A DNA stretch of 64,000 nt from Sulfolobales archaeon (lineage in GTDB: Archaea; Thermoproteota; Thermoprotei_A; Sulfolobales; AG1), in assembly GCA_038867615.1 (NCBI GenBank), contig JAWBYA010000001.1:64001-128000 (forward strand), given 5' to 3'. The stretch's first letter is position 1; each line of letters starts with the position of its first letter. A program made the position numbers and the translations under genes. This document shows, one piece after another, positions 1 through 61,463 of the stretch. A model generated the notes under the pieces. The model searched no databases, had not been told where the DNA came from, and saw only the letters and a program-made list of their open reading frames with translations.

Positions 1-1095
1 CTACAGATAAACAACGCTCTAGCTGATGAGGGGGTTGTTAGGAAATATGAGAGACTACTTTCAGGAATGTGGGGTCTTGGGGAGTTAGAGTACCGCCCTG
101 ATATATCCAAGAACATGAATGTGGAGATATCGCCTATAATGTTAACATATATAGAGCCATTCCAGGTTTACAATATAGATGTGAAATCATATATTGAAGG
201 TCGCAGAGAATTTTCGCTAAATGAATGGATAGATATTATAATAACAACGATAGGGTTAAATCCTAGAGTCTATTCCCAGAGGCAAAAGCTCTTGCTAGTG
301 GCAAGACTGATCCCTCTTATTGAGGGGAACGTAAACCTAATGGAGCTTGGCCCAAGAGCCACTGGGAAGACGTACCTTTACAGAAATATATCACACCATA
401 CCAGGATCTACTCAGGCGGTACTGTAAGCCCAGCTAAGCTTTTCTTCGATGCAAAATCACGATTAATGGGCGATATAGCGACGCACGATGTTGTAATATT
501 TGATGAGATAAGCAGGATCAAGTTCGCGAACCCCGACGAGATGGCTGGAAAATTGAAGGACTTTATGGTCGACGGTTTCTTCGAACGAGCTGCATTGAAA
601 AGAGCCCATAGTGATTGCTCACTTGTATTCCTAGGAAATATTGAAAAAGAGGATACTCGGGTCGGAAAGATAAGAGAGGTTCTGCCCAATATCATGCAGG
701 ATCCGGCTTTTCTTGACAGGATTCACGGGCTTATACCGGGTTGGGAGATGCCAAAAATAATGAGAAGTGAGGAGCACCTGGCTCGAGGAATAGGGCTGGC
801 GGTAGATTATTTTGCCGAAATACTCCACAGCATGAGGAAGGAGAGCTTTGGAGACATAGTTAATGCCCATGTAGAATTCGTGGGCAGTTTCACTATAAGG
901 GATGAAAGAGCTGTTGGAAAGCTTATCTCAGGGTTTGTTAAACTCCTCTTCCCCCATAAAGAGTTTAGTAGTAGTGAGCTAAAGCAGGTGATCGATCTAG
1001 CATTAGAAATGAGACAATATATCGTAGACGAACTAAGCGATATATCTCCTGCAGAGTTTCCGCGAAAACGCCTCGAGGCGAGGGTAAGGGGGTGA
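1..1095 (+). CDS. brxL: BREX-type BrxL-like AAA+ ATPase, 5'-truncated by the window edge; no C-terminal Lon protease domain
   Basis: Frame is open from base 1 (LQINNALADEGVVRKYERLLSGMWG...). Motifs typical of the BrxL ATPase region: EWIDxxxxxxGxNP, LMELGPRATGKT (Walker A), VVIFDE (Walker B), AFLDRIHGxIPGWE and RDERAV. Confidence 0.85.
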   Translation, partial: LQINNALADEGVVRKYERLLSGMWGLGELEYRPDISKNMNVEISPIMLTYIEPFQVYNIDVKSYIEGRREFSLNEWIDIIITTIGLNPRVYSQRQKLLLVARLIPLIEGNVNLMELGPRATGKTYLYRNISHHTRIYSGGTVSPAKLFFDAKSRLMGDIATHDVVIFDEISRIKFANPDEMAGKLKDFMVDGFFERAALKRAHSDCSLVFLGNIEKEDTRVGKIREVLPNIMQDPAFLDRIHGLIPGWEMPKIMRSEEHLARGIGLAVDYFAEILHSMRKESFGDIVNAHVEFVGSFTIRDERAVGKLISGFVKLLFPHKEFSSSELKQVIDLALEMRQYIVDELSDISPAEFPRKRLEARVRG

Positions 1096-1913
1096 TGACC
1101 AACTTTACCAAAGATCTTGAAAACATGGTCAAAATAGCTTCAGCACTAGGTCGCCTGACTGTGGATACTCTTCATAGAATAATATTTAGCTCTTTCTTAA
1201 GAGCTGGCTTATCCGTTCGTGGTGTGAGAGGAAGGTGGGAGGAAGAGGTAAAAGATCTTATTAGGACGATCCCTGCACCCTACAGGGCGCAGGTAAGCGG
1301 TGAGCTCTATTTAAACGCTCTCTCCTTTATAAAAGCCTTCAACTCCTTCCTAGAGGATAACAGGCAGGCTGTAATTATTAGAGAGGCTAATCTCCAGCAT
1401 ATTGTGCAGCTCCTCGAAAGTAGGGTTGGCAAGGTTGATGGGGTCTTTGTCTTCGACTGTGCATCAGTACCAGAGTTCATAGCTATTGCGAGTAAGTTTT
1501 CAGCGTTAGGGCGCAATACAACGATTCTCGAAGAGGTCTTTGTAAATCCAGTAGGGGTGACACGCTTTCTAACGGGGCAGCTTGAGGCGCTTGATCGTGG
1601 AACATACTTAGCCCATTATGCCAGACTATTGAAAGAGAGATTGAGGGCTGGCTTCTCAACTAAGATCTCAACAATAGATCTCATAACACATAGGCAAGGC
1701 TTTACTCTCAGAGATTTTCTGGACTCTCTCAAGCCCTCAGAGCTATTCGAGGAGATAAGGCGTTTCGCAGAACAAAAATCCGTGCTCATCACATCAGATC
1801 ATGGTTATGATGTGATTATGGATGAGCATGGGTTCTATGTGACTCATGGGTATTATAAAGAGAATTGTTTATTAAGCTTCAGCAGGATAGCATTATTCCT
1901 GGTGATCGATTGA
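1092..1913 (+). CDS. Short PglZ-like alkaline-phosphatase-superfamily protein
   Basis: Motif order VFVFDC / GVT / IDxxxH / LITSDHGY / THG matches the PglZ catalytic domain. GTGA overlap with the brxL stop. Confidence 0.7.
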   Translation: MMTNFTKDLENMVKIASALGRLTVDTLHRIIFSSFLRAGLSVRGVRGRWEEEVKDLIRTIPAPYRAQVSGELYLNALSFIKAFNSFLEDNRQAVIIREANLQHIVQLLESRVGKVDGVFVFDCASVPEFIAIASKFSALGRNTTILEEVFVNPVGVTRFLTGQLEALDRGTYLAHYARLLKERLRAGFSTKISTIDLITHRQGFTLRDFLDSLKPSELFEEIRRFAEQKSVLITSDHGYDVIMDEHGFYVTHGYYKENCLLSFSRIALFLVID

Positions 1914-1922
1914 GGTGATAGT

Positions 1923-2417
1923 ATGGAGTATAGCTATTACCTGATCTTTAAATCTAGGAAGAAAGGAGGAGAGATATCATTCAACGTTGGAACAAAGGAG
2001 AGAACCGAGGCTATGATCAAGCTTGGAGGACGCCGATCCGAAGAGCTGTTTACAAGAATTCTGGAAACCTTAGGAAGAGCAGGATGTATAACCCCTATCC
2101 AAACTGGTAATCCACGAATCTATGCTGTAAGAGGCGATGTAGGCCCCGTACTAGGGGCTTACCTAATTCTTATCAAACGCTCCCGGAAGATCGAGTACTG
2201 GATAGAATTCTTAAACGAACTGCTAACCGGAAAATACTCATGGCTCGGAGGAGCCTTCTCAACACTACTGGAACTTGCGATCGACCTATCGAAAAGAGCA
2301 CCATTAAAAAGTCAAAAAGAATACACACTTTCACCTATAATTATCTCTGCAATTTCATCAGCTATGAAGGAGTTTGTAAATAAACTAAAGGAATACGAGA
2401 CAAAGATCGGAAGCTAA
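1923..2417 (+). CDS. Hypothetical protein, last gene of the brxL-pglZ operon
   Basis: 164-aa ORF with a GAGGTGA ribosome-binding site directly after the pglZ-like stop. Confidence 0.75.
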   Translation: MEYSYYLIFKSRKKGGEISFNVGTKERTEAMIKLGGRRSEELFTRILETLGRAGCITPIQTGNPRIYAVRGDVGPVLGAYLILIKRSRKIEYWIEFLNELLTGKYSWLGGAFSTLLELAIDLSKRAPLKSQKEYTLSPIIISAISSAMKEFVNKLKEYETKIGS

Positions 2418-2817
2418 AGAGAGTCAATAGCCCTTTGCGCCTCTCTTTCAAGTCTCTTTATTCTTTGTAGTACTTTTTGCTCTCCGAATATGTCAAGGAG
2501 TCTCCAGAACCTTCTAATAAACTCTTTTCTCCGTCTAACTTTCCCTTTATATTCCTTTACAGCTTCTTCTTTCAAGGATCTCAGCATGACTTTTCCCCTG
2601 CTCTTTTACAGCTAGATCTTTCAGGATCTTCTCACAAACCATATAGCATTAAGCTTTTTTCTATTTTTAAAGACTTATTTGGCTTAGATGTCTTGGCAAC
2701 GATCTGCTTGACATACTCAGCCAGGATACTCTCAATAACAAGTTTAGCAACTAATTTAGCCAACACTAATGCCTCATAGGATATGAACCCTGAGGCAAAT
2801 AATAAATACCCGAGCAA
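2414..2817 (-). pseudogene. Possible decayed gene fragments with an internal ~45-bp degenerate duplication
   Basis: Two short minus-strand ORFs (2632-2817, and ~2414-2587 MLRSLKEEAVKEYKGKV...). 2538-2582 and 2589-2630 are imperfect direct repeats. Confidence 0.3.
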
Positions 2818-3130
2818 AAGACAACACAGATCCGCAGTTCTTAGGCCTGTTTGTCTTCTTTTTATTATCTATAGACTTTCACCTCGCCTGCAGAGATCTA
2901 GGAACCCCTATGGGGTCTATGACTACTAGCTATAATGATCTTCAAGACTCTAAATGTTAATTTGCTTGATCGTTGTGTTATTTCCATTAACAGTATACCA
3001 AGTATTCATAGCTTTTCTTGCGTTATTAGATCGATCCTTGACTTTTATGTATGATGCTTAGTTAGGGTTAGGTGTTGTTGTGTAATATTTATATATCTAT
3101 GTATGGCTGTCTTATTAACTGCTTGTATTA

Positions 3131-3931
3131 TTGCTTGTTTGTGGTGTGTGGTTAGTGAGTGCTGGTGTCTCGCCTGTTGTTGAGAAGCCGTGTCGTGTTG
3201 TCTCTATAGTGAGTGGTGGTCCTGATAGTTTTTGCTATCTTGTTAGATGGCTTTCCCTTGGTTGTGATGCCCATGTGCTTTCGTTTAACTATGGTCAGAA
3301 GGGTTCTAAGGAGCTTGAGGTTGCTAGGAGGATTGTTGGTGTTCTCGATGATATTGCTGGGGAGAGGGGTTGGGGGAGGGTTGTTGAGCACAGGGTTGTT
3401 GATATATCCTTCATGAGGGATCTTTGGAGGGGGACGCAGCTAACAGATGAGAAGGTAGCTGTTGAGGAGGAATACACACCAACAGTTGTTGTACCCATAA
3501 GGAATGTTGTGATGCTATCGATAGCAACTGCATATGCATATAGCATAAGCAGCATCTTTGGAGGCAGGGTTTATATAATATATGGAGCCCACTACGGCGA
3601 TGTAAAGCCTAGAGGAGATACTGGAGAACCCCTATACCCTGATTGCTCTCCAGAGTGTATAGAGAGCCTACAAACAGCATATAGGCTATGCCACTTCAGA
3701 AGCGAGAGAAGGATAGAGATATGGAGCCCAAGCAGAGAGGGTATGTCGAAAGCCCAGAACCTGAAGAAATGCTACGAAACAGTGGGGGATCTGGTATACG
3801 AGACATGGAGCTGCTACCTAAGCGGGGAACACCACTGCGGCAAATGCGAGAGCTGCATAAACAGGGCGAGGGCGTTCAAAGAGGCAGGGATCCCTGATAA
3901 AACAATCTATAGATCTAAACCCGATATATAG
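3131..3931 (+). CDS. queC: 7-cyano-7-deazaguanine synthase (QueC family), stand-alone
   Basis: SGGPDS PP-loop, FNYGQK, VVPIRN, YPDC and TWSCY...[11 protein letters not shown] Zn site. Confidence 0.9.
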
Positions 3932-4140
3932 CAAACACGCCCAAGCAATAAGCAACACAGGATCATTGGAGAACCATAGGTAAGAGGATCACCAATTTCC
4001 CGGGAAACCCACTAACAGGCAAAGCCGCAACAAGCCGTTTGGCATCCATGGAGATTTATAAAGAAAGCCCTTGATAAAAGAGCCCTAAGCCGGTGAGGAT
4101 ATGTAGAGTCAAACAACCAAACACTATGAATCCAAACCGA

Positions 4141-4228
4141 TGGTGCGGGGGGTGGGATTTGAACCCACGCAGGCCTACGCCATCGGGTCCTAAGCCCGAC
4201 CCCTTTGACCTGGCTCGGGCACCCCCGC
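4141..4228 (-). tRNA. tRNA-Leu(TAG), CCA encoded
   Basis: Reverse complement GCGGGGGTGCCCGAGCCAGGTCAAAGGGGTCGGGCTTAGGACCCGATGGCGTAGGCCTGCGTGGGTTCAAATCCCACCCCCCGCACCA folds as a cloverleaf with a long variable arm. Confidence 0.97.
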
Positions 4229-6633: not shown

Positions 6634-7806
6634 CTAGCTGAGGATCACTATCTCCCATGCCGGGTGGATCTCTGCCCAGAAACCGTGATCCGTGTCAAGA
6701 ACAAGGGATCCTATAACCAGGATCCTATCCCCAGGTTTGAGCCTGGTGAGGGTATCTTTCAGCGACTCCTGCATAGAGGGTACTACTTCTATATGTAGGT
6801 AGCCGTCTCTCAGTACTATGCTGCCGACAGAGATGTAGTGCGAGTATTCGGGATCGACCCTCAGATCTATTGTGAAGTCATTGTCATTCGAAGGCCCTGA
6901 CTGAGTATATATACCCTCGACCACTCCAGTAACGCTCACACATGTATCGAGCACCCTGAGCCTCTGCGGCCCCCACACACCACTCTCTATAGTCCCACCA
7001 CCAGCCACGTTACCCTGGAGACAGGCGGGGGAGGAGTTTTTCTGGAACCACTGCTTGGCTTCAAGCGAGTCTGGGTATAGTGGGTAGAGAAAGTTCCTCA
7101 CATTATAGGCGAGGGGTGTCTGGTTGGTTAGAAGAGAAGCTGGCACAGCTATCAAGACTATTGCTAGGAAGAGAAGAGCCATCCCAGTCCCTCTCAGCAT
7201 TCGCTGCGTTAGCACCGAGTATGATGCGATAAATAGGATGAGTAGAGAGACCAGAACACCTAGGGGGACTAGATAGGGTGCTGCTGAGAGAAAGATCCCT
7301 ATTACTGCTATAAATACTATGCCTCCGAGTATTTTCCTATCTAACCTTGCCTCTCTCTCCACAGCCTTTGCTAGAACATATGCGGGCGGGATAAACACAG
7401 CCTCAAAAATGGTTAAGGATACGTTAATAGCATCACCACCATAGAATCCCAGGCCCAGAAGGGTTGCTACAATCGTGCCAAAAACAGTTGTTGTCAGCAT
7501 AGAGCCGAGCGACCCTATCCTAGGCCTTAGGCTTGATAGAATGAAAGCCTGTGCTGTTCTTATAATAACAGCCCCGATAACGGTTAATGTGAAGGCGCTC
7601 TGGGTTATACTAATCAGGATGGCTGCTGCGGCTGTACCGATAAATATGCTGGCTGTAGCCAGGATCGGTTTAAAGAGCAGGCCCGCAGCGAAGAGGACAA
7701 AGGCGCTCGGTCCATATCCGAAGAAGGGATATGGTGTGTTTGCAATGCTCAGCGATGTTAGAAAGGAGGTTAGAATGATTAGTACTAGGCCTAACGGGAT
7801 CCTCAT
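6634..7806 (-). CDS. Multi-pass membrane protein with a C-terminal soluble beta-rich domain
   Basis: About 8 TM segments in the N-terminal ~230 aa, then a polar domain with NDNDF, HIEVVP and DTDHGFWAEIHP. Confidence 0.7.
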   Translation of the reverse strand: MRIPLGLVLIILTSFLTSLSIANTPYPFFGYGPSAFVLFAAGLLFKPILATASIFIGTAAAAILISITQSAFTLTVIGAVIIRTAQAFILSSLRPRIGSLGSMLTTTVFGTIVATLLGLGFYGGDAINVSLTIFEAVFIPPAYVLAKAVEREARLDRKILGGIVFIAVIGIFLSAAPYLVPLGVLVSLLILFIASYSVLTQRMLRGTGMALLFLAIVLIAVPASLLTNQTPLAYNVRNFLYPLYPDSLEAKQWFQKNSSPACLQGNVAGGGTIESGVWGPQRLRVLDTCVSVTGVVEGIYTQSGPSNDNDFTIDLRVDPEYSHYISVGSIVLRDGYLHIEVVPSMQESLKDTLTRLKPGDRILVIGSLVLDTDHGFWAEIHPAWEIVILS

Positions 7807-8151
7807 TCCAGGCCTCCCCGCTATTTATAACTCTCATTAATTTAAATATAATAAAATATGGTTTAAACTAAACAACATACAGTGGGTTCTTCCCTTTCTA
7901 ATAGTCTTTAGAGAGTGGTTTCGAGCTAGAGGAAAAAGAATTATAGACATACATCTGATGCTGGGTTTATCTACAGCGTAAGTGTGAGTGTCTATGAGGA
8001 GGGGCTAGGGTTCGAGGAAGCTGGGTAGAGTGTTTTTGTCAAATGATACCAACCATTATGGGATCCCCGGATCCCTTTAACAACTATAGATGCTCGTTGG
8101 TCGATTTACCAAAATAACTGCTAGTATAAATATTATTTAGAGGATGCTGCG

Positions 8152-9993
8152 ATGGGTGAGGCTAGGAGGCTTAGATCGCCTATAGTCGTTGTCCTAGGAC
8201 ATGTGGATCATGGGAAAACCACTCTGCTCGATAAGATAAGGGGGACCGCTGTTGTTAAGAAAGAGCCTGGGGAGATGACGCAGCATGTTGGTGCTAGTTT
8301 TGTCCCAACCCATGTTATAGAATCGATAGCAGAGCCTCTCAAGAAGTTCATAAGATTTAGGCTGAGGATACCGGGGCTTCTGTTTATAGACACGCCTGGG
8401 CATGAGGCTTTTGCTAATCTAAGGCGTAGGGGCGGATCTATAGCTGATCTGGCGGTTCTTGTTATAGATATAATAGATGGTGTCAAGCCCCAAACTATAG
8501 AGAGCATAGAGATCCTTAAGGATAGGAGCGTACCATTTGTGGTTGCTGCCAACAAGATAGACAGGATACAAGGTTGGAGATCCTTCGAAGACACACCGTT
8601 TATGGAGAGCAGTAAAAAGCAGGATAAAAGGGTGCTTGAGGCTCTTGATAGAAATATATACTCGATCGTGGGTAGCCTCTCCAGCCTGGGAATAGAGGCT
8701 GAGAGGTTCGATAGGGTGAGGGATTTTAGAAAGACAACCCCCATAGTCCCAGTCTCGGCTAAAACAGGCGAGGGCTTGCCAGAACTACTAGCAGTTCTCG
8801 CCGGGATAGCGCAGCAGTATCTGGAGGAGAGGCTAGTCTATGCCGAAGGCCCTGCCAAGGGGGTTGTACTCGAGGTTAAGGAGGAGCAGGGTCTCGGAAC
8901 AACTATAGATGCTATAATATATGATGGTGTTATGAAGAGAGGAGACTTAATAGTGCTCGGAGGGTTTGATGGAGCTATAATTACGAAGGTCAGAGCACTC
9001 CTACTACCAAAACCCCTGGATGAGATGAGGGCTCCCACAGATAGGTTTAACAATGTTGAGGAGGTATATGCTGCTGCAGGTGTTAAGATCTCGGCCCCTA
9101 ATCTTGAGAAAGCGATAGCCGGGTCTCCTATCCTTGTTGCCCAGAGCGAGGAGGAGGCTAAGATCCTTGCTGCTAAAATCGCCGAGGAGATAGGATCCCT
9201 GAGGATCTCCTCCCAAGATACTCTAGGGCTTGTGGTTAAGGCAGACACCCTGGGAACCCTTGAAGCCCTTGTATCGATGCTTAAGAAGAGGAACATACCT
9301 ATCAGGATCGCTGATGTGGGGCCGCTATCTAAGAGGGAGGCTATAGAGGCTGCAGTGGTTTCTAAGGATAATAGATACCTAGGCGCTGTTCTCCTCTTCA
9401 ACGTTGGTGTTAACAGCGACGCCGAAGAGATCCTCAGGGGATCTGGTGTGAAGCTATTCCAGGGAAACATAATTTATAGATTGGTTGAGGATTACATCGA
9501 GTGGGTTAATGAGGAGAAGAGGAAGGAGAGGGAGAGGGAGCTAGAGAAGCTTGTGAGAGCTGGTAAGATAAGGATCATACCGGGCTATGTGTTCAGAAGA
9601 AGCGATCCAGCAATAGTTGGTGTAGAGATCCTCGGGGGAGTTATAAGACCCGGCTACCCCCTAATGAGAGAGGATGGTAGAAGCCTTGGAACTATAATGC
9701 AGATCCAGGATGCTGGGAAAACCATAAATATAGCTAGGACAGGGATGTCGGTTGCGATCTCTATCAGGGGTAATATATTGGTAGGGAGGCATGTGAACGA
9801 GGGCGACATAATATATACAGATATCCCTGAGAATCATGTGAACGAGCTTGTAGATCGATTCGCACAGGATCTCAGCAACGACGAATTATTAGTTCTAAAA
9901 GAAATAGTAGAGATAAAGAGAAAAAGTAACAAGCTATTCGCAACATCATCCTATATAAAGCTCCTACAAATCATCGGTAAAGGTGCGAAATAG
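8152..9993 (+). CDS. infB: Translation initiation factor aIF5B (IF-2)
   Basis: LRSPIVVVLGHVDHGKTTLLD, DTPGHEAF, NKID and VFRRSDPAIVGV. Confidence 0.97.
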   Translation: MGEARRLRSPIVVVLGHVDHGKTTLLDKIRGTAVVKKEPGEMTQHVGASFVPTHVIESIAEPLKKFIRFRLRIPGLLFIDTPGHEAFANLRRRGGSIADLAVLVIDIIDGVKPQTIESIEILKDRSVPFVVAANKIDRIQGWRSFEDTPFMESSKKQDKRVLEALDRNIYSIVGSLSSLGIEAERFDRVRDFRKTTPIVPVSAKTGEGLPELLAVLAGIAQQYLEERLVYAEGPAKGVVLEVKEEQGLGTTIDAIIYDGVMKRGDLIVLGGFDGAIITKVRALLLPKPLDEMRAPTDRFNNVEEVYAAAGVKISAPNLEKAIAGSPILVAQSEEEAKILAAKIAEEIGSLRISSQDTLGLVVKADTLGTLEALVSMLKKRNIPIRIADVGPLSKREAIEAAVVSKDNRYLGAVLLFNVGVNSDAEEILRGSGVKLFQGNIIYRLVEDYIEWVNEEKRKERERELEKLVRAGKIRIIPGYVFRRSDPAIVGVEILGGVIRPGYPLMREDGRSLGTIMQIQDAGKTINIARTGMSVAISIRGNILVGRHVNEGDIIYTDIPENHVNELVDRFAQDLSNDELLVLKEIVEIKRKSNKLFATSSYIKLLQIIGKGAK

Positions 9994-10201
9994 CCTAGAT
10001 AAGAGACAGGTCTTTTCACTCTGCCTGTTAAGGATATAAAGATCCATCGATTAATATCTAGGGCTAGACAGATAGTTTGCACAATATATGGGGATCGGGC
10101 TGTTTTCTTTTTGATATATATAGGGAGGATTAATAGGTTTTGGAAATTTTCATGGATATTGGGGCATGCCTGGAGGCTGCTTTCCCACCAACACCTGGGT
10201 A

Positions 10202-10440
10202 TTTATAATCCTTGAAAGATATTATTCCCGGTGTGGGTCTCCCCACACAAGCCCTGGGTGGTGATGGGAGCAGTGTTCCAAGCCATCCGGGGCAAAGCTA
10301 GATGGGAGCCACATGCCGTTTGGCTCGACGGCCGCCCATGACCCTGCAGGATCAGAGATCCTGTGGGTAGAGGTGGAAGTCCCTGGATAAGACCATGAAC
10401 AAATATAAAATGATTGGAATGAAAATCCAGGGACAAACGG
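10202..10440 (+). mobile_element. Non-autonomous TnpB-element relic, family 2 copy 1 (promoter + omega-RNA-like segment + right end)
   Basis: TTTATAAT at 10202; hairpin GTGTGGG-tctc-CCCACAC at 10231-10248; a frame reading GSHMPFGSTAAHDP, like crenarchaeal TnpB tails as recalled; 10-bp stem GTCCCTGGAT/ATCCAGGGAC at 10379-10434; ends AAACGG. Homologous to 50453-50572. Confidence 0.6.
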
Positions 10441-10458
10441 GAGTAGAGAAAAAGCTAG

Positions 10459-11415
10459 CTATCCTAGATATTTTGGAGGTATCTGGGCTATGTTTTTTCT
10501 TATAGCATCCACGCTCTCGTCTAGGAGTTGTTTCTCTCTATCGTTGAGCGGTAGTTCTATGATCTTCTTAATACCGCCTTTTCCGAGGACTACTGGTACG
10601 TTTACACAGACATCTTTATAGCCGTACTCTCCGTTTAGGCAGGCGCTGGCTAGGAAGACCTTGTTCTGATCCTTCTTCACAGCCTCAGACATTATGGCTA
10701 GACCAGCTCCTGGACCATAGCTGGAGCTATAACCCCTAAGCTCTATTATCCTAGCACCAGCCTGTATAGTCTCTTTGGTAATCTCCTCCACATCCTTCTC
10801 GCTAAGAACCTCTGTTAGGGGCTTCCCCATGACTGTTGATAGTCTTGGAAGTGGGAGCATCTTCTCACCATGCTGCCCTATAACTATCGCCTCTATAGAT
10901 GCGGGGGATATGGAGAGCTTTCTAGATATATAGTACTTCATCCTACCAGAGTCGAGAACACCGCTGAAGCCTATGATCCTCTCGCGCGGGAAGCCTGTTG
11001 CCTTATATAGCAGGTATACCATGGCATCAAGTGGGTTGGTGGTTATCATGTTAACGGAGTTTGGCGCGTATTCAGCAACATTTCTAGCTATGTCTACAAC
11101 AACCTCAGCGTTCTTGGCAACAAGCTCCTCTCTAGTCATCCCAGGGCCTCTTGGAAAACCGGCAGTTATCAGGACGATGTCAGCACCACTTATATCCTTG
11201 TAATCATTAGAGCCTGTAACGCTCACACTCTTACCAAGTATAGATAGAGCATGAGCTAGATCTAGGGCCTCACCCTGAGGCCTCCCCTTAATTATATCTA
11301 CCAAGACTATATCGTCAAGCTCCATCATCGATATATAGATCGCTGCTGCAACACCAACTCTCCCAGCACCTATTATTGCAATCACACCAAAGCACCCCAT
11401 GTACAATTCGTTCAA
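10459..11415 (-). CDS. mdh: Malate dehydrogenase (LDH-like MDH)
   Basis: IIGAGRVG, ITAGFPRGPGMTREEL, TNPLD, LDSGR and GQHG. Confidence 0.93.
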   Translation of the reverse strand: MNELYMGCFGVIAIIGAGRVGVAAAIYISMMELDDIVLVDIIKGRPQGEALDLAHALSILGKSVSVTGSNDYKDISGADIVLITAGFPRGPGMTREELVAKNAEVVVDIARNVAEYAPNSVNMITTNPLDAMVYLLYKATGFPRERIIGFSGVLDSGRMKYYISRKLSISPASIEAIVIGQHGEKMLPLPRLSTVMGKPLTEVLSEKDVEEITKETIQAGARIIELRGYSSSYGPGAGLAIMSEAVKKDQNKVFLASACLNGEYGYKDVCVNVPVVLGKGGIKKIIELPLNDREKQLLDESVDAIRKNIAQIPPKYLG

Positions 11416-11613
11416 ACTAATATAAATTAGGTTATATTGATTTGACTCTAATGAAACCGCGTGTCTGGTTGCAGGTTTGCGGCATAATATAGCATGATCA
11501 GTGGGTTGCTATTTTTATACCGGGAATCGCTGGATCTATCTATAAGTTTTGGATTATAGTGATTAATACTGGCTAATATTAACTCTTGAGTGTAGATTTA
11601 TTATTGGTGGAGC

Positions 11614-12816
11614 ATGTTCATTAAATTTGATGGCATAGTAATATTATCTGCTGTGAGAACCCCTATAGGTAAGTTTGGAAGAACGCTAAGGGATCTAAAG
11701 GCATCGGAGCTGGGATCCATAGCTATAAGGGAGGCTGTTTCAAGGGCCGATATAGATCCAGAGGATATAGGGTTCATAGCCATGGGGAACGTGATAAGGG
11801 CTGGAGGCGGTATGTTGACATCAAAGCAGGCAGCAATACTGGCAGGGCTTCCACCAACGATAGATTGTATGAATATAGATATGGTGTGCTCCTCGGGCAT
11901 GGCATCTATAGCTACAGCTGCGTTATATCTCGATAAGGGGGCTGCAAAGATAGCCATAGCTGGCGGTATGGAGAGCATGAGCAGCTCGCCCTACTTGATA
12001 CCATCACAGACTAGATGGGGGGTTCCACACCTAACCAATAGGAGCCTTAGTATAGCGGATGCAATGCTCGTAGACGGGTTGATAGACCCGTTCACTGGGT
12101 ATCATATGGGCAAGATAGCGGATCTCTATGCGAGAAGGGTTGGAGCGTCTAGAGAGGATCTGGATCTCATAGCCCTTGAGAGCCATATGAGGGCTGCTAA
12201 AGCGAGAGACGCCGGGATCTTCTCTAGAGAGATAGTACCTGTAAGGGTTTCTAGAAACGGGGCTGAGGTTTATCTCGATAGGGATGAGGGGATCAGGGAT
12301 GATGTGTCTCTCGACAGACTTAGATCTCTAAACCCTGTATTCACGCCAGAGGGTCCCCACACCGCGGGAAGCTCTTCCCAGTTGAGTGATGGGGCTGCGG
12401 CTCTCGTCCTGGCTAGGGAGGACTATGCTAGGGAGAGGGGTTATAAGCCTCTCGCAAGACTTATAGCGTATTCGAGTGTTGATACAAAGTCTGAGGATTT
12501 CCCATGGGCTCCTGTCCCTGCTGTTAAGGAGCTCGTCAAAGGCCTAGGGATCGAGCTCTCATCTGTGGATCTCTATGAGAATAACGAGGCTTTCGCGGTA
12601 TCCACATATATATTTGTGAAGGATCTCGGGATCTCTATGTCGAGGCTTAATGTCCATGGAGGCGCAATAGCCCTTGGCCACCCGTTGGGAGCGACGGGGG
12701 CGAGGCTAACAACAACTTTGATCAATGCTCTGAGGATAAGGGGTGGTAGGAGGGGTATAGCCTCGATGTGCCATGGTTTGGGAGGAGGCACTGCTCTGAT
12801 GATCGAGCTTCTCTGA
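11614..12816 (+). CDS. Acetyl-CoA C-acyltransferase (thiolase)
   Basis: RTPIGKF, VCSSG (catalytic Cys), NEAFA, GAIALGHPLGATG and MCHGLGGG. Confidence 0.95.
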   Translation: MFIKFDGIVILSAVRTPIGKFGRTLRDLKASELGSIAIREAVSRADIDPEDIGFIAMGNVIRAGGGMLTSKQAAILAGLPPTIDCMNIDMVCSSGMASIATAALYLDKGAAKIAIAGGMESMSSSPYLIPSQTRWGVPHLTNRSLSIADAMLVDGLIDPFTGYHMGKIADLYARRVGASREDLDLIALESHMRAAKARDAGIFSREIVPVRVSRNGAEVYLDRDEGIRDDVSLDRLRSLNPVFTPEGPHTAGSSSQLSDGAAALVLAREDYARERGYKPLARLIAYSSVDTKSEDFPWAPVPAVKELVKGLGIELSSVDLYENNEAFAVSTYIFVKDLGISMSRLNVHGGAIALGHPLGATGARLTTTLINALRIRGGRRGIASMCHGLGGGTALMIELL

Positions 12817-12820
12817 CCGG

Positions 12821-13102
12821 CTAGGCTTCTTGTTCTTGTTCAGGGCCCTCCGGCTTTTTCCCAGATCCGCATCTCTGCCTCTCAAGGCTGAAGATCGTTG
12901 GTGAGATCCACATTATCCAGGCTGGCACTTTTTTCACAAACTCGTATGCCTGTTCCCAGCTCTCAAGCCCGAGATCCTGGGCTAATCTCTCAAGGCTATA
13001 CTCCATCTTGACATAGTTATTCAGGATCCTCACTATATCTTCGTTAACCTCTATCCTCTTACCCCCAACCTCAACATATATCGGGTCGCACAGCGAGCTC
13101 AA
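12821..13102 (-). CDS. Small hypothetical protein
   Basis: 93-aa ORF with ordinary codon usage, downstream of spt5. Confidence 0.7.
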   Translation of the reverse strand: MSSLCDPIYVEVGGKRIEVNEDIVRILNNYVKMEYSLERLAQDLGLESWEQAYEFVKKVPAWIMWISPTIFSLERQRCGSGKKPEGPEQEQEA

Positions 13103-13173
13103 TGGGAAACCCTCGTGCTAGTTTATACGGATAAGAGCCTATAAAGATAACACACGATCCCAAAGATGTATGT

Positions 13174-13677
13174 CTATTGCTGCTTCAGAGGCTTGAGATA
13201 CTCTGCAGGGACTGTTATGTTCATGGGGAACTGGGACTCAACTATGGCTACTGTAACCTCCATCCTACTCCTATCAATACTCTGTATTGTTCCTCTAAGC
13301 CCTCTAAAGGGGCCTGCGATGATCTCTACTATCATTTTCTCCTTAAGCTCCTCTATTATTGGGACTGGTTTGAGCATCACCTCGAGATCCTTGAAGCTAA
13401 CAGCTCCTGCAGCCTTCCCCTTAACATGCTTTATATCCTTCACAGCCTGGTAGACCATGTGGAGGCTGGGAACCTCTAGGATTATGTAACCCTTTATACC
13501 TGGGGGCACTACGATAGCTCTCACATCTATCTTTCTCCCACCGGTGGTTTTAGACGATTCTACAAGCATCTCGATCATTAGGGCTACGTTTCCCTCCTGC
13601 CCTCCTGTTGTCCTCATAGCGAACAGCTGTGTTATGCCCTTCTTCTCGGTCTTCTCTCCCTCGTCTTGTGTGCTCAA
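13174..13677 (-). CDS. spt5: Transcription elongation factor Spt5 (NusG family)
   Basis: FAMRTTGGQEGNVA NGN domain, KGYIILE and KOW motif VEIIAGPFRG. Confidence 0.95.
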   Translation of the reverse strand: MSTQDEGEKTEKKGITQLFAMRTTGGQEGNVALMIEMLVESSKTTGGRKIDVRAIVVPPGIKGYIILEVPSLHMVYQAVKDIKHVKGKAAGAVSFKDLEVMLKPVPIIEELKEKMIVEIIAGPFRGLRGTIQSIDRSRMEVTVAIVESQFPMNITVPAEYLKPLKQQ

Positions 13678-13847
13678 CCTGTACCACCGCTTAGCATGAA
13701 TATAACTATGGATCTTATTGTGAACGCTATTGTACCTACGAGGAAGAGTCCTAGAAATATTATTTTCAGGAATAGCCTGTACTCTTCATCATCAGGCCTC
13801 CTAGCCAGCTCAAGGATCTTTTTCCATGTCTCGATTATGGATGACAT
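13674..13847 (-). CDS. secE: Preprotein translocase subunit SecE/Sec61-gamma (not in the ORF track)
   Basis: 57-aa ORF MSSIIETWKKILELARRPDDEEYRLFLKIIFLGLFLVGTIAF...; conserved secE-spt5 order with a 4-bp overlap. Confidence 0.9.
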   Translation of the reverse strand: MSSIIETWKKILELARRPDDEEYRLFLKIIFLGLFLVGTIAFTIRSIVIFMLSGGTG

Positions 13848-14193
13848 GGTGCTCTAAATAGAATATTGTATGGGGACTATAATAGCTTAACTCGGATCCG
13901 GGGTTCTTGCCAAATAATAAGAAAGATCTATATAAAGATCTATTAGGGTTCTGCTATGAATTGTTTTCATAGTATCCCTGGATTGGGGCGGGGGCTGTGC
14001 TCTAGTCAGTATAGAGAGTAGTCTCTCGGTAGATTAAGTTCAGCATCTATTGGGCTAGTAACAAATCAAGCTTCTGCGGTAGCAGAGATCTATGAAGGCT
14101 GGATAGATGTTCCTTGGAGAATATCGGGAAATATCTGGAGGCAGATGATACTTATTGCTCACATGGTTGGGAGAAGATCAACAATGATCATGG

Positions 14194-16529: not shown

Positions 16530-16759
16530 GACCCCTCAGAATAAACTGTAGAGAAGCCCTATATCTATGTTTTCCTGGAATGGTCTATCGCTAGATCATA
16601 TTGCAAGCTTTACAGCAGGATTTATAGCCATAAACAGCCTGTTAATGACGAATACTGTTGACACTATTTTTTAAGTGTACATAATATTTGTTTATCAATA
16701 ATGCCAGTATCGTAACAGTAGAGAACTCTTGGGAACTATTGTAGCCGGGTCTGTTCTTG

Positions 16760-17962: not shown

Positions 17963-18374
17963 GCTATCACCCAGGATTTATATCTACATAAGACTACGTT
18001 ATGGGAGGGTAAAAATTCTTATCTCGGTTATGATACAATTGTGTAGCAGGATCCATGTTTATCAAGAATAGTTAAACTCCATGAGTTCTTGGGATGATAT
18101 ATGAAAACCGTTTTTGCTTTCATGGAACTTTATCGTGGTGTATTTGATTTTCCTATAGACAAGCGCATGTTATGTGTATCTTACAAAGATCGGGGTATCT
18201 GTTGAAGAGAACAAGGATATAGCGATCCTGAATTGGTTGGTTAAGAACACCGGCTTCAAAGAAGCCACGTGGTTTGCGAGACAATAGGCGGTGGTTTGTA
18301 TTAAACAGTAACTATGAGGAGCTCTGTGGGCTGTGGATGTTATATACACATTAGCTTTGTTTGTGTGAAAGGTT

Positions 18375-19247: not shown

Positions 19248-19344
19248 GTAGTGTAGAGAGCTACATCGGTAGAACAATATGGAGAGTGGAGGTAAACCGC
19301 TTATTACCCCACATGTCGATTTAAATGATAGGGTATAGGTAGCC

Positions 19345-61206: not shown

Positions 61207-61377
61207 CATAATAATCTCATGATCCCTCATAACCGAGTCTCTATAGATCTGCAAACCCGGATCGTTATCCTAGCTGAAGCCCTGTTGTCAAAGGAACAGT
61301 GGTTTGCCATAAGCCTATAAAGATCTTGCAGTATAATCCTCAGCTTCTCGAGCATTGAAAACTATTAAGTTATTAAG

Positions 61378-61463
61378 TCCCCCCGAGGGGATTTGAACCC
61401 CTGACCACCCGGTTTCCGCCCGCCCCACTACAGCCGGGCGCTCTGCCACTGAGCTACGGGGGG
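61378..61463 (-). tRNA. tRNA-Tyr(GTA) with a 14-nt intron at 37/38 (61414-61427); CCA not encoded
   Basis: CCCCCCGTAGCTCAGTGGCAGAGCGCCCGGCTGTAG[TGGGGCGGGCGGAA]ACCGGGTGGTCAGGGGTTCAAATCCCCTCGGGGGGA; C1-G72 pair and relaxed BHB motif. Confidence 0.95.

What the first reader, a model, noticed from the sequence alone, without database searches (positions are those of the whole stretch)
1..4228. tRNA-Leu-flanked defence island tail: protease-less BrxL, mini-PglZ, unknown protein and stand-alone QueC (candidate new BREX-related, possibly deazaguanine-linked system)
Seen: a tightly coupled operon of a BrxL-type ATPase, a 273-aa PglZ-type phosphatase and a 164-aa unknown protein, then queC, ending at the 3' end of tRNA-Leu. 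Known: BREX systems use PglZ and BrxL with either a methylase (PglX) or a PAPS-reductase-like protein (type 4); tRNA 3' ends are common integration sites; QueC-family proteins serve defence in Dpd (7-deazaguanine DNA marking), QatC and type IV CBASS Cap9. Inference: this compact archaeal layout fits no canonical BREX type, and QueC may supply preQ0 as the self-mark or for protein modification. The modification and ATPase genes would lie left of the window, so the link is unproven.
Basis: partly seen in the sequence, partly recalled or inferred. Interest (0 to 1): 0.78.

Follow-up and report, generated by a model that had tools for sequence, protein, structure and literature searches.

The report
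BREX-related cassette beside unrelated QueC genes
A five-gene, methylation-based anti-virus cassette related to BREX has dropped between two ordinary QueC genes of this archaeon; the QueC and tRNA-Leu neighbours are coincidental, and the cassette's one unusual feature is a short BrxL motor where published relatives carry a helicase.

Summary

**QueC and tRNA-Leu are backbone.**
- The window is G000:C1:64001-128000, so the left flank could be read.
- The operon is DUF1156 N6-methyltransferase (1020 aa), divergent DUF499 ATPase (1092 aa), short BrxL (470 aa), standalone mini-PglZ (273 aa) and a 164-aa unknown.
- It is a ~10-kb, lower-GC insert between two old, divergent QueC paralogs (29% identical).
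- In the closest relative the two QueCs lie ~370 bp apart, with tRNA-Leu beside QueC-B and no cassette.
- None of 11 relatives with QueC-B orthologs has BrxL or the mini-PglZ.
- None of 11 other p273-matched loci (10 with cassette genes) has a QueC.
- The genome has one TGT-family gene, on another contig, so no DpdA candidate.

**What the cassette is.**
- It best matches the "Type-3 BREX-Related" systems of Rakesh & Krishnan (NAR 2026).
- Here a Type-4-like short BrxL replaces the Swi2/Snf2 helicase.
- The eight BrxL-bearing loci form one clade. One sister locus has the helicase instead; two have neither.
- The 164-aa protein has no recognisable fold relative.

Verdict: new variant of a known kind, of moderate interest.

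The parts
1..1095 (+). C-terminal 364 aa of a short (470-aa) BrxL AAA+ ATPase. The gene starts 318 nt left of the window, at G000:C1:63683 (L006:19683).

Cassette genes further left, outside the window:
- DUF1156 N6-methyltransferase, 1020 aa, at C1:57319-60381 (L006:13319-16381).
- Divergent DUF499 ATPase 'p1092', 1092 aa, at C1:60394-63672 (L006:16394-19672).
- Backbone QueC-A at C1:56193-56969 on the minus strand (L006:12193-12969).
   Evidence: - **BrxL:** TIGR02688 at 476 bits against a 329.3-bit cut-off, covering 1-448 of 449. Pfam BrxL_ATPase 1.7e-112 on the window fragment. Walker A GPRATGKT and Walker B VVIFDE are present.
- **MTase:** PADLOC MTase_II 1.9e-35, HmaB 5.6e-34, DUF1156_MTase 2.4e-20. 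NCBIfam DUF1156_antiphage 1.6e-28, below its cut-off.
- **p1092:** hhalign against Pfam-positive DUF499 proteins gives probability 99.5, E 2e-22, over 656 columns.
1092..1913 (+). Standalone mini-PglZ ('p273', 273 aa): an N-terminal helical region (about residues 1-112) followed by an alkaline-phosphatase-type core (113-273).
   Evidence: - **Model:** AF2 pLDDT 84.0, pTM 0.87.
- **Foldseek:** ranks 1-17 are all PorX, a PglZ-domain protein; best E 1.7e-4, probability 1.00.
- **VIA-align over 48,161 chains**: PorX Z 9.4 (215 aligned), Acinetobacter BREX PglZ Z 7.5 (203 aligned), Salmonella BREX PglZ Z 4.9 (195 aligned), all spanning model 1-273. Other alkaline-phosphatase-superfamily members score Z<=4.2 and align only to 113-273.
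- **Invariant residues in 27 family members**: D122, T157, T161, D196, H200, D236-H237-G238, H252.
- **Pfam PglZ** is sub-threshold only: 3 of 27 members, best E 0.042.
1923..2417 (+). 'p164' (164 aa): a conserved partner gene that always follows the mini-PglZ. The model is a five-stranded beta/alpha N-terminal domain plus a C-terminal helical bundle. It has no recognisable relatives.
   Evidence: - **Synteny:** it follows p273 in 10 of the 11 loci, and in L065.
- **Family:** 75 homolog clusters, all about 150-180 aa, none with a Pfam domain or an informative name.
- **Model:** AF2 pLDDT 89.5, pTM 0.86.
- **Fold searches:** Foldseek finds nothing at E<=0.001. Best VIA Z is 6.5, within the range the tool calls common.
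- **PDB profile search:** best E 0.01, to a Roadblock/LC7 fusion.
- **Atlas:** best score 0.84.
2632..2817 (-). 61-aa remnant of the N-terminus of a coiled-coil gene that occupies this intergenic site intact (251 aa) in relative G002. It marks the right edge of the insert.
   Evidence: - blastn: C1:66683-66811 matches L034:15389-15517 at 89% over 129 nt.
- The 251-aa ORF at L034:14819-15574 on the minus strand shares the N-terminal sequence.
- Alignment A1 shows homology to the relatives resuming here and again from about window 2995.
3131..3931 (+). QueC-B (7-cyano-7-deazaguanine synthase family). This is a chromosomal backbone gene, not part of the cassette.
   Evidence: - Pfam QueC 2.6e-39.
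- The SGGPDS PP-loop and the C-terminal C...CGKCESC cluster are visible in the sequence.
- Orthologs at 55-97% identity occur in 11 of 40 relatives, none of which has BrxL or p273.
- It is syntenic with QueC-A and tRNA-Leu in G003 and G002, which lack the cassette.
4141..4228 (-). tRNA-Leu(tag). This is backbone, not an att site for this insert.
   Evidence: - ARAGORN.
- The same position relative to QueC-B is seen in G003 and G002.
- No copy of its 3' part occurs in C1:30001-68100. The only match is a 13-nt hit at about C1:52602-52614, which lies inside the tRNA-Ile gene.

Best explanation
The window opens inside a five-gene operon. In order: a DUF1156-type N6 DNA methyltransferase, a divergent DUF499 (BrxC-like) P-loop ATPase, a short BrxL (MCM-like AAA+ ring ATPase without a C-terminal domain), a standalone 273-aa PglZ-domain metal-dependent phosphodiesterase/nuclease, and a 164-aa protein of unknown fold.

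The operon is a horizontally acquired insert of about 9.7-10 kb (C1:56980 to about 66682-66994). It landed in the spacer between two divergently transcribed, vertically inherited QueC paralogs and truncated a small coiled-coil gene. QueC-B and tRNA-Leu are ordinary chromosomal neighbours. QueC most likely serves preQ0/archaeosine synthesis for tRNA.

**Proposed mechanism (inferred by homology with BREX and BREX-Related systems; nothing was assayed here)**
- The methyltransferase marks a host DNA motif as self.
- The DUF499 ATPase scaffolds and scans DNA.
- BrxL supplies the DNA-loading or unwinding motor that a Swi2/Snf2 helicase supplies in sister systems.
- The mini-PglZ, probably held or regulated by the 164-aa partner, is the effector acting on unmodified invader DNA.

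The system is a BrxL-bearing variant of the published 'Type-3 BR' class.
For: **Insert and backbone**
- blastn synteny: in G003, C1:53136-56979 maps to L033:8281-12124 and C1:66995-70000 maps to L033:12495-15475. The two QueCs are therefore about 370 bp apart there, against 10,015 bp here.
- G002 has a different 1.4-kb filler at the same site.
- The insert has GC 0.429, against flanks of 0.458 and 0.471.

**No QueC linkage**
- QueC-B orthologs (55-97% identity) occur in 11 of 40 relatives.
- TIGR02688 BrxL is over cut-off in only 3 of 40 relatives (G019, G029, G040).
- The p273 profile hits only 3 of 40 relatives (G018, G019, G040). None of these overlaps the 11.
- QueC-A orthologs occur in all 5 same-genus relatives.
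- The genome has one TGT-family gene, on contig C2. QueD-like and QueE-like genes lie elsewhere.

**Conserved cassette**
- The same order, MTase-ATPase-BrxL-p273-p164, is seen in 7 other loci (L039-L045) from Bathyarchaeia, Nitrososphaerota and Thermoproteota.
- No QueC occurs in any of the 11 loci of that call.

**Component identities**
- See the parts list.

**BrxL and helicase alternate**
- L048 has a 1088-aa DEAD/Helicase_C/ResIII protein abutting the MTase and no BrxL.
- No helicase was found among the scanned flanking ORFs (>=140 aa, within 7 kb) of the BrxL-bearing loci, or inside the own insert.
- In the ATPase tree the 8 BrxL loci form one group, with support 98/99 and recovery in 96% of 200 bootstrap trees.

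**Literature (PMC12839542; sections 19, 28, 33, 34 read, plus passages)**
- Type-3 BR is defined as DUF499 ATPase, DUF1156 N6-MTase, BrxHII-like helicase, standalone active PglZ and iSTAND.

**Defence-island context elsewhere**
- Neighbours of the cassette in other genomes include an integrase, AbiEi, PIN, HEPN, CHAT, RmuC and EVE.
Against: - No function was tested. Every mechanistic step is by analogy.
- p1092 is not recognised by Pfam DUF499 directly (0 hits for the own protein; 1 of 27 family members at E 0.008) or by PADLOC.
- p273 is recognised as PglZ only by structure. Its two presumed active-site loops (153-158, 197-200) have pLDDT below 50.
- p164 could not be tied to BrxB/iSTAND or to anything else.
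- A conserved ORF of about 170 aa abuts the MTase in 4 loci (L039, L040, L041, L044) and is missing from this genome, so this copy may lack a component.
- Two loci (L046, L065) have neither BrxL nor an adjacent helicase. The motor may therefore be dispensable, or encoded elsewhere.
- The tree carries long-branch warnings for L048, L065 and one outgroup.
- One locus (L040) has a QueT deazapurine-precursor transporter 2.5 kb beyond the cassette, behind an integrase. This is the only deazaguanine-related neighbour seen.
Confidence: 0.8

Rival explanations
1. One reading: QueC-B (and perhaps QueC-A) supplies preQ0 to the cassette, which marks DNA or proteins with a 7-deazaguanine derivative. This would be a Dpd-, Qat- or Cap9-like link.
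For: - Two QueC paralogs physically bracket the insert.
- Both score below the NCBIfam QueC equivalog cut-off (110 and 88 bits against 150.3), so neither is a textbook QueC.
- One other cassette locus (L040) has a QueT transporter 2.5 kb away.
- The 2026 paper describes a different BREX-related system (BRC) that does recruit a TGT.
Against: - The QueC pair and tRNA-Leu are adjacent in G003 and G002, which have no cassette.
- 0 of 11 relatives with QueC-B orthologs have BrxL or p273.
- 0 of 11 other p273-matched loci contain a QueC, and L065 has none either.
- The cassette has its own intact methyltransferase.
- The genome has a single TGT-family gene, in a 556-aa frame on another contig, so there is no DpdA candidate.
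- QueC-B is separated from the operon by 713 nt that contain an opposite-strand gene remnant.
Confidence: 0.03
2. Nothing new: the cassette is an ordinary member of the published Type-3 BR class, and the authors' dataset (569 taxa, 134 of them archaea) already contains these loci. BrxL would then be just another neighbourhood gene that the main text does not discuss.
For: - Four of five genes map onto Type-3 BR components.
- L048 shows the full published layout with homologous proteins.
- The authors used sensitive iterative searches of nr up to September 2024, and several p273 homologs are NCBI MAG proteins.
Against: [quoted passage not shown] None of the BrxL passages shown (12 of 19 places; 12 of 83) places it in a BR system.
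- Two full-text searches listed no other paper that I recognised as combining these components, judged from titles and abstract openings only. One search listed 2 of 3 papers; one search listed 15 of 38.
Confidence: 0.25
3. The copy in this genome is an incomplete or decaying remnant. It has lost the ~170-aa upstream gene and any helicase, and it no longer defends.
For: - The ~170-aa ORF that abuts the MTase in 4 loci has no tblastn match anywhere in this genome.
- No integrase or flanking repeats remain.
Against: - All five ORFs are full length, with spacings from a 4-nt overlap to a 12-nt gap.
- MTase motifs I and IV, the BrxL Walker A and B, the p1092 Walker A and B, and every invariant p273 residue are intact.
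- Four other BrxL-bearing loci (L042, L043, L045, and G040, which is the same record as L045) also gave no match to the ~170-aa ORF. L043 is cut at the contig end, and L042 has only 492 nt upstream of the MTase.
Confidence: 0.1

Closest known systems
Type-3 BREX-Related (BR) system of Rakesh & Krishnan, Nucleic Acids Res 2026 (PMC12839542)
   Same: - A DUF499-type ATPase.
- A DUF1156 N6-methyltransferase with a large insert between motifs I and IV carrying CxxC pairs.
- A standalone, apparently active PglZ encoded as a separate gene.
- A small fifth gene in the position of their iSTAND.
- Strong representation in archaea.
- No dedicated nuclease gene.
   Different: - There is no Swi2/Snf2 (BrxHII-like) helicase. 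A short BrxL sits between the ATPase and PglZ instead.
- The ATPase is too divergent for Pfam DUF499.
- My model of the fifth protein is a beta-sheet domain plus a helical bundle. The paper describes its iSTAND as lacking a C-terminal helical bundle, and no BrxB-like match was found.
- Whether the paper's dataset includes these loci could not be checked.
Type-4 BREX (BrxP-BrxC-PglZ-BrxL; Goldfarb et al. 2015, recalled; described in PMC12839542 section 34)
   Same: It has the short BrxL form without a C-terminal Lon or HKD domain (TIGR02688). PglZ and a BrxC-like ATPase are present.
   Different: - The modification module here is a methyltransferase, not a PAPS-reductase/DUF4007 phosphorothioation apparatus.
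- The ATPase is DUF499-type rather than BrxC/DUF6079.
- PglZ is a 273-aa standalone domain.
Type-1 BREX (BrxA-BrxB-BrxC-PglX-PglZ-BrxL)
   Same: The overall logic is shared: methyltransferase, large P-loop ATPase, PglZ, BrxL and small accessory protein(s). BrxB-PglZ sub-complexes have been solved (9nv3, 9zn5, seen), which motivates the proposed p164-PglZ pairing.
   Different: - No PglX-type methylase. The PADLOC PglX hit is only 9.4e-5.
- No BrxA or BrxB by Pfam.
- BrxL lacks the Lon-like domain.
- PglZ is about a third of the usual length.
- The gene order differs.
Hma system (PADLOC: HmaA helicase, HmaB methylase, HmaC DUF499 ATPase), equivalent to Type-1/2 BR
   Same: The methyltransferase hits the PADLOC HmaB models at 5.6e-34 and 2.3e-33. 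The ATPase is a DUF499 homolog.
   Different: There is no HmaA helicase-nuclease. PglZ, BrxL and p164 are extra components. No PADLOC model recognises three of the five proteins.
Dpd 7-deazaguanine DNA modification system; QatC; Cap9
   Same: Only that a QueC-family gene lies nearby.
   Different: - No DpdA/TGT, DpdB or DpdC, and no Qat or CBASS partners.
- QueC-B hits the QatC models only over about 30 C-terminal residues (E 3.2e-4 and 2.3e-5, far below cut-off).
- QueC is backbone in relatives that lack the cassette.

Membership tests
Type-3 BR system (PMC12839542) | DUF499-type AAA+/STAND ATPase | tested here: met
   hhalign of the 27-sequence p1092 family against 11 Pfam-positive DUF499 proteins gives probability 99.5 and E 2e-22 over 656 columns, with Walker A, Walker B and YP(L/F)xP in register. 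Pfam alone fails. Atlas neighbours are DUF499 in 17 of 30 hits.
Type-3 BR system (PMC12839542) | N6-methyltransferase with an N-terminal DUF1156 helical domain and a TRD nested in the MTase core | tested here: met
   - PADLOC DUF1156_MTase 2.4e-20 and HmaB 5.6e-34.
- NCBIfam DUF1156_antiphage 1.6e-28, at 99 bits against a 1000-bit cut-off.
- Pfam DUF1156 only at E 0.0042.
- DPMAGGG at residue 142 and DPPY at residue 563, with CxxC pairs between them, in 9 of 9 loci.
Type-3 BR system (PMC12839542) | Swi2/Snf2 SF2 helicase (BrxHII-like) in the core locus | tested here: not met
   - The 10-kb insert holds only the five genes, and none has a helicase domain.
- No helicase was found among the scanned flanking ORFs (>=140 aa, within 7 kb) of the BrxL-bearing loci.
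- Only L048 has one (DEAD 2.5e-25).
Type-3 BR system (PMC12839542) | Standalone PglZ with conserved metal-site residues | tested here: met
   - Fold: PorX Z 9.4, BREX PglZ Z 7.5 and 4.9, each over the whole model. Foldseek PorX probability 1.00.
- Invariant D122, T157/T161, D196, H200, D236-H237, H252.
- Reading these as the D...T...DxxxH...DH...H two-metal site of the alkaline-phosphatase superfamily is from my recall, not from a residue-level superposition.
- The cap-like three-stranded insert named in the paper could not be judged.
Type-3 BR system (PMC12839542) | iSTAND (inactive STAND, BrxB-like) small protein, present in 82% of taxa | tested here: inconclusive
   - p164 occupies the expected position and has a homolog in the helicase-type locus L048.
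- Its model (b-b-b-a-b-b plus four helices) matched no BrxB or P-loop chain.
- Pfam BrxB was not found over cut-off in any of 301 genomes of the phylum, so no local comparison set could be built.
BrxL, short form (NCBIfam TIGR02688) | Full-length match over the curated cut-off; no C-terminal Lon or HKD domain | tested here: met
   476 bits against 329.3, covering 1-448 of 449. The long-form model TIGR02653 matches only positions 3-459 of 675, at 324.9 bits against a 628.25-bit cut-off.
Canonical BREX (types 1-6) | PglX/PglXI methylase or BrxP, together with BrxC/PglY and a long PglZ | tested here: not met
   - PglX only at 9.4e-5 in PADLOC, whereas DUF1156/HmaB models score far better.
- No PAPS-reductase, BrxA, BrxB or BrxC hit in any cassette protein.
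- Pfam PglZ is not significant for p273.
Dpd-type 7-deazaguanine DNA modification | DpdA (a TGT-family DNA transglycosylase) encoded with the system | tested here: not met
   PF01702 gives a single match in the whole genome, at C2:38922-39908 in a 556-aa frame. None lies in the 40 kb left of the window or in the cassette.
QueC (7-cyano-7-deazaguanine synthase) | PP-loop SGGxD[ST], C-terminal Zn-binding Cys cluster, family HMM | tested here: met
   - Pfam QueC 2.6e-39 for QueC-B and 1.9e-32 for QueC-A, both over the 22-bit cut-off.
- SGGPDS / SGGLDT and the C...CGKC..C cluster are visible in both.
- NCBIfam equivalog TIGR00364 is below cut-off for both (110 and 88 bits against 150.3), so exact function is inferred.
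tRNA-gene-targeted integrated island | An integrase, plus a direct repeat of the tRNA 3' end at the far boundary | tested here: not met
   - No integrase among the ORFs of the insert.
- No repeat of tRNA-Leu in C1:30001-68100 apart from a 13-nt match inside tRNA-Ile.
- Junction repeats are at most 10 nt, E 0.36.
- The insert boundary lies 1.1-1.5 kb from the tRNA.

The most novel reading that the evidence does not exclude
The BrxL-bearing cassettes are an uncatalogued fourth BR subtype. A single ancestral event replaced the Swi2/Snf2 helicase of a Type-3 BR system with a Type-4-like short BrxL. This would be a natural non-orthologous displacement showing that the MCM-like BrxL ring and the SF2 helicase do the same job in BREX-type immunity.

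In the same system, the 164-aa protein would be a new-fold partner or sensor of the smallest known active PglZ, taking the role that BrxB/iSTAND plays elsewhere. The subtype has spread across at least three archaeal phyla.
Probability: 0.45. Interest if true: 0.55.

Novelty: new variant of a known kind. Interest (0 to 1): 0.42.

Why it matters
**The main value is corrective.** An apparent link between BREX-like immunity and deazaguanine chemistry is an accident of where an island landed. The synteny test that shows this is simple and decisive.

**What remains is useful to BREX specialists.**
- The same four-gene core (DUF1156 methylase, DUF499 ATPase, mini-PglZ, p164) occurs with a BrxL, with an SF2 helicase, or with neither. 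This is comparative support for the published proposal that BrxL and the BrxH helicases are functional equivalents, and that the motor is an accessory.
- The 273-aa PglZ and its 164-aa partner come from thermophilic archaea. They are compact candidates for biochemistry and structure work on how PglZ is controlled.
- PADLOC v2 recognises only two of the five genes, so current defence-finder tools probably miss this system.

Tried and rejected
- **Family scans of p273, p164 and p1092** against Pfam, PADLOC and NCBIfam: no significant hits.
- **PDB sequence and profile searches:**
  - p273: only an imelysin hit at E 0.0092.
  - p1092: nothing meaningful.
  - p164: a Roadblock/LC7 fusion at E 0.01.
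- **Per-member Pfam scans:**
  - PglZ in 3 of 27 p273 members, best E 0.042.
  - PglZ in 1 of 21 distant relatives at E 0.0016.
  - DUF499 in 1 of 27 p1092 members.
  - All are sub-threshold.
- **Exhaustive profile search with the p273 alignment** over 1.84 billion representatives: 60 hits at E<=0.001, nearly all 220-290 aa. It does not reach long PglZ proteins.
- **p164 fold searches and atlas:** no credible relative. A BrxB/iSTAND match did not appear. That is no evidence of a different fold.
- **Comparison with Pfam BrxB:** abandoned, because PF08747 was found over cut-off in 0 of 301 genomes of the phylum.
- **Complex prediction for p273 with p164:** not available.
- **The search of earlier findings:** returned nothing for this genome.
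- **att-site idea:** rejected.
- **Recent QueC duplication:** rejected, because the two QueCs are 29% identical.
- **BrxL in G019 and G029 as Type-4 BREX:** rejected. There it sits with an unannotated 541-544-aa protein between housekeeping genes.
- **** failed on a format slip (regions and files together) and was re-sent.

Full report
**1. Observation**

- *BrxL.* The 5'-open frame at 1-1095 is the last 364 aa of a BrxL (Pfam BrxL_ATPase 1.7e-112). The window is G000:C1:64001-128000, so the gene could be completed. It is 470 aa and matches NCBIfam TIGR02688, the short BrxL, at 476 bits against a 329.3-bit cut-off, over positions 1-448 of 449. The long-form model matches only up to position 459 of 675. 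'Protease-less BrxL' is therefore correct, and it is a known short form.
- *273-aa and 164-aa ORFs.* The 273-aa ORF (1092-1913) overlaps the BrxL stop by 4 nt. The 164-aa ORF (1923-2417) follows after 9 nt. Neither hits any Pfam, PADLOC or NCBIfam model.
- *QueC and tRNA-Leu.* QueC at 3131-3931 is a Pfam-level QueC (2.6e-39) but scores below the NCBIfam equivalog cut-off (110 against 150.3 bits). tRNA-Leu(tag) lies at 4141-4228 on the minus strand.

**2. What lies to the left**

The 20 kb left of the window (L006) read as follows:

| Feature | Position (L006) | Evidence |
|---|---|---|
| Ribosomal protein S7 | 7728-8396 + | Pfam Ribosomal_S7 3.5e-48 |
| tRNA-Ile(gat) | 8589-8665 - | ARAGORN |
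| AglB/STT3-like oligosaccharyltransferase, 770 aa | 9128-11440 + | Pfam STT3-PglB_core 2.1e-07 |
| 222-aa protein, no significant family hit (weak coiled-coil-type matches only) | 11480-12148 + | weak hits only |
| Second QueC ('QueC-A'), 258 aa | 12193-12969 - | Pfam QueC 1.9e-32 |
| Methyltransferase, 1020 aa | 13319-16381 + | PADLOC MTase_II 1.9e-35, HmaB 5.6e-34, DUF1156_MTase 2.4e-20; NCBIfam DUF1156_antiphage 1.6e-28 |
| 1092-aa protein, no family hit | 16394-19672 + | none |
| BrxL start | 19683 + | see above |

- Spacings within the operon run from a 4-nt overlap to a 12-nt gap, so MTase-p1092-BrxL-p273-p164 is one operon.
There is no brxC by direct hit, no PglX, no dpdA/TGT, no queD/queE/folE and no integrase.

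**3. The QueC and tRNA-Leu question**

- *Paralogs.* The two QueCs are 29% identical, so they are old paralogs, not a duplication made by the insert.
- *Co-occurrence.*
  - A search of 40 relatives found QueC-B orthologs (55-97% identity) in 11 of them.
  - TIGR02688 BrxL is over cut-off in 3 other relatives: G019, G029 and G040.
  - A profile of the p273 family hits G018, G019 and G040.
  - The QueC-B set and the cassette sets do not overlap.
  - QueC-A orthologs occur in all 5 same-genus relatives.
- *tRNA adjacency.* tRNA-Leu(tag) sits beside QueC-B in the two closest relatives, G003 and G002. No tRNA lies within 1.5 kb in the other 9 ortholog loci.
- *Synteny.*
  - C1:53136-56979 (AglB to QueC-A) aligns to G003 L033:8281-12124 at 93%.
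  - C1:66995-70000 (QueC-B, tRNA-Leu and beyond) aligns to L033:12495-15475 at 92%.
  - The two QueCs are thus about 370 bp apart in G003 and 10,015 bp apart here.
- *The site in G002.* G002 holds a different 1.4-kb filler, a 251-aa coiled-coil gene. Its N-terminal 129 nt survive in the window at 2683-2811, inside the 61-aa ORF at 2632-2817 on the minus strand. The cassette therefore landed in, or replaced, that gene.
- *Insert properties.*
  - GC is 0.429, against flanks of 0.458 and 0.471.
  - It has no flanking repeat longer than 10 nt.
  - No copy of the tRNA-Leu 3' end lies in the 38 kb to the left.
- *Rest of the pathway.*
  - The genome has a single TGT-family gene, in a 556-aa frame on contig C2.
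  - There are two QueD-like genes on C2.
  - A QueE-like gene lies about 316 kb away on C1.
  - This is a scattered pathway with no DpdA candidate.
  - From general knowledge of archaeal tRNA modification, not from a test here, QueC most simply serves archaeosine synthesis.
- *Conclusion.* The deazaguanine link is not supported.

**4. The cassette is a conserved mobile unit**

- *Occurrence and order.*
  - The search for related loci with the p273 alignment gave 11 loci from named MAGs.
  - BLASTP of the own proteins against their ORFs shows MTase-p1092-BrxL-p273-p164 in the same order in 7 loci, L039 to L045. They come from Bathyarchaeia, Terraquivivens (Nitrososphaerota), Thermoprotei, Desulfurococcaceae and Acidilobaceae. 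L045 is the same record as G040. In L043 the MTase is cut by the contig end.
  - L046 (Methanoxibalbensis) and L048 (Thermoproteaceae) have MTase-p1092-p273-p164 without BrxL.
  - L047 is a 3.7-kb contig with only p273-p164, and is identical to the G018 hit.
  - L049 (a deltaproteobacterial MAG) is a 47-residue chance-level hit with no other cassette gene.
  - G019 contig C14 (L065) is a further BrxL-less four-gene copy.
  - No QueC was found in any of these loci at E<=1e-4.
- *Flanking genes.*
  - Elsewhere they are typical of defence islands: a tyrosine integrase, AbiEi, PIN, HEPN, CHAT, RmuC, EVE and PaREP1.
  - The one exception worth stating is a QueT transporter 2.5 kb past the cassette in L040, beyond the integrase.

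**5. Component identities**

- *p273.*
  - 45 homolog clusters, all about 271 aa, all archaeal and unannotated.
  - Only 60 clusters among 1.84 billion representatives.
  - The AF2 model (pLDDT 84.0, pTM 0.87) matches PorX, the structurally characterised PglZ-domain protein, at Foldseek ranks 1-17 (best E 1.7e-4, probability 1.00).
  - In a Foldseek-independent all-against-48,161 alignment:

    | Match | Z | Aligned residues | Model range |
    |---|---|---|---|
    | PorX | 9.4 | 215 | 1-273 |
    | Acinetobacter BREX PglZ | 7.5 | 203 | 1-273 |
    | Salmonella BREX PglZ | 4.9 | 195 | 1-273 |
    | Other alkaline-phosphatase-superfamily chains | <=4.2 | about 130-150 | mostly 113-273 |

  - The invariant residues D122, T157/T161, D196-x3-H200, D236-H237 and H252 fit the superfamily's two-metal site. 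That reading is from my recall.
- *p1092.*
  - Walker A GFGFGKTH and Walker B LLLLIDELG are present.
  - 89 homolog clusters, of which one is named DUF499 by UniRef.
  - hhalign against 11 Pfam-positive DUF499 proteins from the same order gives probability 99.5 and E 2e-22 over 656 columns.
- *MTase.* Motif I (DPMAGGG) and motif IV (DPPY) are about 420 aa apart with CxxC pairs between, in 9 of 9 loci. This matches the nested TRD with Zn-finger that the 2026 paper describes.
- *p164.*
  - 75 unannotated clusters.
  - The model is confident (pLDDT 89.5): three strands, a helix, two strands, then four helices.
  - It has no credible relative by Foldseek, VIA-align, PDB profile search or the atlas.

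**6. Comparison with the literature**

- *What the paper defines.*
  - Rakesh & Krishnan (PMC12839542) define DUF499-centred 'BREX-Related' systems. I read the abstract, sections 19, 28, 33 and 34, and passages from three 'find' calls.
  - Their Type-3 BR has a DUF499 ATPase, a DUF1156 N6-MTase, a BrxHII-like Swi2/Snf2 helicase, a standalone active PglZ and an iSTAND protein present in 82% of taxa. It covers 569 taxa, 134 of them archaeal.
  - They state that the helicase of all BR systems is Swi2/Snf2-family.
  - They state that Type-4 BrxL is the short form.
- *How the loci compare.*
  - L048 has the gene set of their Type-3 BR, if p164 is their fifth component: a 1088-aa DEAD/Helicase_C/ResIII protein abuts the MTase.
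  - The window's cassette and seven others instead have the short BrxL between the ATPase and PglZ, with no helicase in the insert or among the scanned flanking ORFs.
- *Tree.*
  - I built a tree of the 11 cassette ATPases with 4 of the 11 canonical DUF499 proteins as outgroup.
  - The 8 BrxL loci form one group, with support 98/99 and recovery in 96% of 200 bootstrap trees.
  - That group lies inside a 100/100 clade of all 11 cassette ATPases.
  - There are long-branch warnings for L048, L065 and one outgroup.
  - This fits one acquisition of BrxL.
  - Very short branches between a Bathyarchaeia locus and a Nitrososphaerota locus point to recent horizontal spread.
- *Other papers.* Two full-text searches listed no other paper that I recognised as combining these components. 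I judged this from titles and abstract openings only: one search listed 2 of 3 papers, and one search listed 15 of 38.

**7. Mechanism**

Shown here:
- Gene identities.
- Operon structure.
- Intact catalytic motifs.
- Mobility of the cassette.
- Independence from QueC.

Inferred by homology with BREX/BR, from the paper's sections and the abstracts listed:
- The MTase marks self DNA.
- The DUF499 ATPase scaffolds and scans.
- BrxL supplies the DNA motor otherwise supplied by the helicase.
- The mini-PglZ is the metal-dependent effector.
- p164 is its partner or sensor, by position and by analogy with the BrxB-PglZ sub-complex.

Complex prediction for p273 with p164 was unavailable.

**8. Caveats**

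- A conserved ORF of about 170 aa abuts the MTase in 4 loci and is absent from this genome.
- Two loci have neither motor.
- p164's relation to iSTAND is unresolved.
- The paper's supplementary tables may already list these loci.

**9. Verdict**

- The deazaguanine and tRNA-integration parts are rejected.
- The cassette is a new variant, BrxL in place of the helicase, of a kind described in 2026.
- Interest is moderate.

Noticed in passing
L006:12193-12969 (-) and window 3131-3931 (+); G003 L033:~11342-13427: Two divergent QueC paralogs (29% identical) sit head to head about 370 bp apart in the cassette-free relative G003. Both have an intact PP-loop and Cys cluster, and both score below the NCBIfam QueC equivalog cut-off. 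QueC-A is conserved in all 5 same-genus relatives. In G001 and G005 the two lie on different contigs. Why this lineage keeps two QueCs is unexplained; one may have another substrate or role in archaeosine synthesis.
   Followed up: partly
G000:C6:52147-53961 (-): The same genome has a second DUF499 gene that Pfam does detect (E 9.9e-39, 875-aa frame) on another contig. This may be a separate BR/Hma-type system.
   Followed up: no
L036:9115-12198 (-) and L037:8304-11384 (-): In relatives G029 and G019 a short BrxL (479-483 aa, with BrxL_N and BrxL_ATPase) is paired only with an unannotated 541-544-aa protein. The pair lies between housekeeping genes (CysRS, a molybdopterin oxidoreductase, a hydrolase), with no PglZ, BrxC or methylase nearby. 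It looks like a two-gene BrxL module of unknown function.
   Followed up: partly
L039:1696-2244, L041:1835-2308, L044:1735-2247, L040:~1933-2319 (all +): A conserved ORF of about 157-182 aa with no Pfam hit abuts the start of the cassette methyltransferase in 4 loci (30-82% identity among them). It has no tblastn match anywhere in the window's genome. It may be an optional sixth component, for example a DNA-binding BrxA analogue.
   Followed up: partly
L040:11471-12358 (-) and L040:13821-14363 (+): In the Terraquivivens MAG the cassette is followed directly by a tyrosine integrase. About 1.5 kb further on there is a QueT (queuosine-precursor transporter) gene. This is the only deazapurine-related neighbour seen in any cassette locus, and it is probably backbone beyond the island edge.
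   Followed up: no
L034:14819-15574 (-); window 2632-2817 (-): Relative G002 carries a 251-aa protein between the two QueCs, built of repeated 'ERI(N/D)xLEKxL'-like heptad-rich units. Only its first ~43 codons survive in the window. The QueC-QueC spacer is a variable spot: empty in G003, holding the coiled-coil gene in G002, and holding the 10-kb cassette here.
   Followed up: partly
L006:7304-7747 (+): A 147-aa ORF with a Cas12f1-like TNB zinc-ribbon domain (Pfam 2.9e-14, plus PADLOC Cas12f hits) lies just upstream of, and slightly overlapping, the ribosomal protein S7 gene. It could be a TnpB/Cas12f C-terminal fragment or an unrelated Zn-ribbon protein.
   Followed up: no
window 61377-61463 (-): ARAGORN reports a tRNA of undetermined identity with an odd anticodon loop ('anticodon (gt) at position 33'). 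It may be an intron-containing or atypical archaeal tRNA.
   Followed up: no
L039 vs L040 (cassette ATPases): Cassette ATPases from a Bathyarchaeia MAG and a Nitrososphaerota (Terraquivivens) MAG are separated by branch lengths of only 0.045 and 0.058. This indicates recent transfer of the cassette between archaeal phyla.
   Followed up: partly
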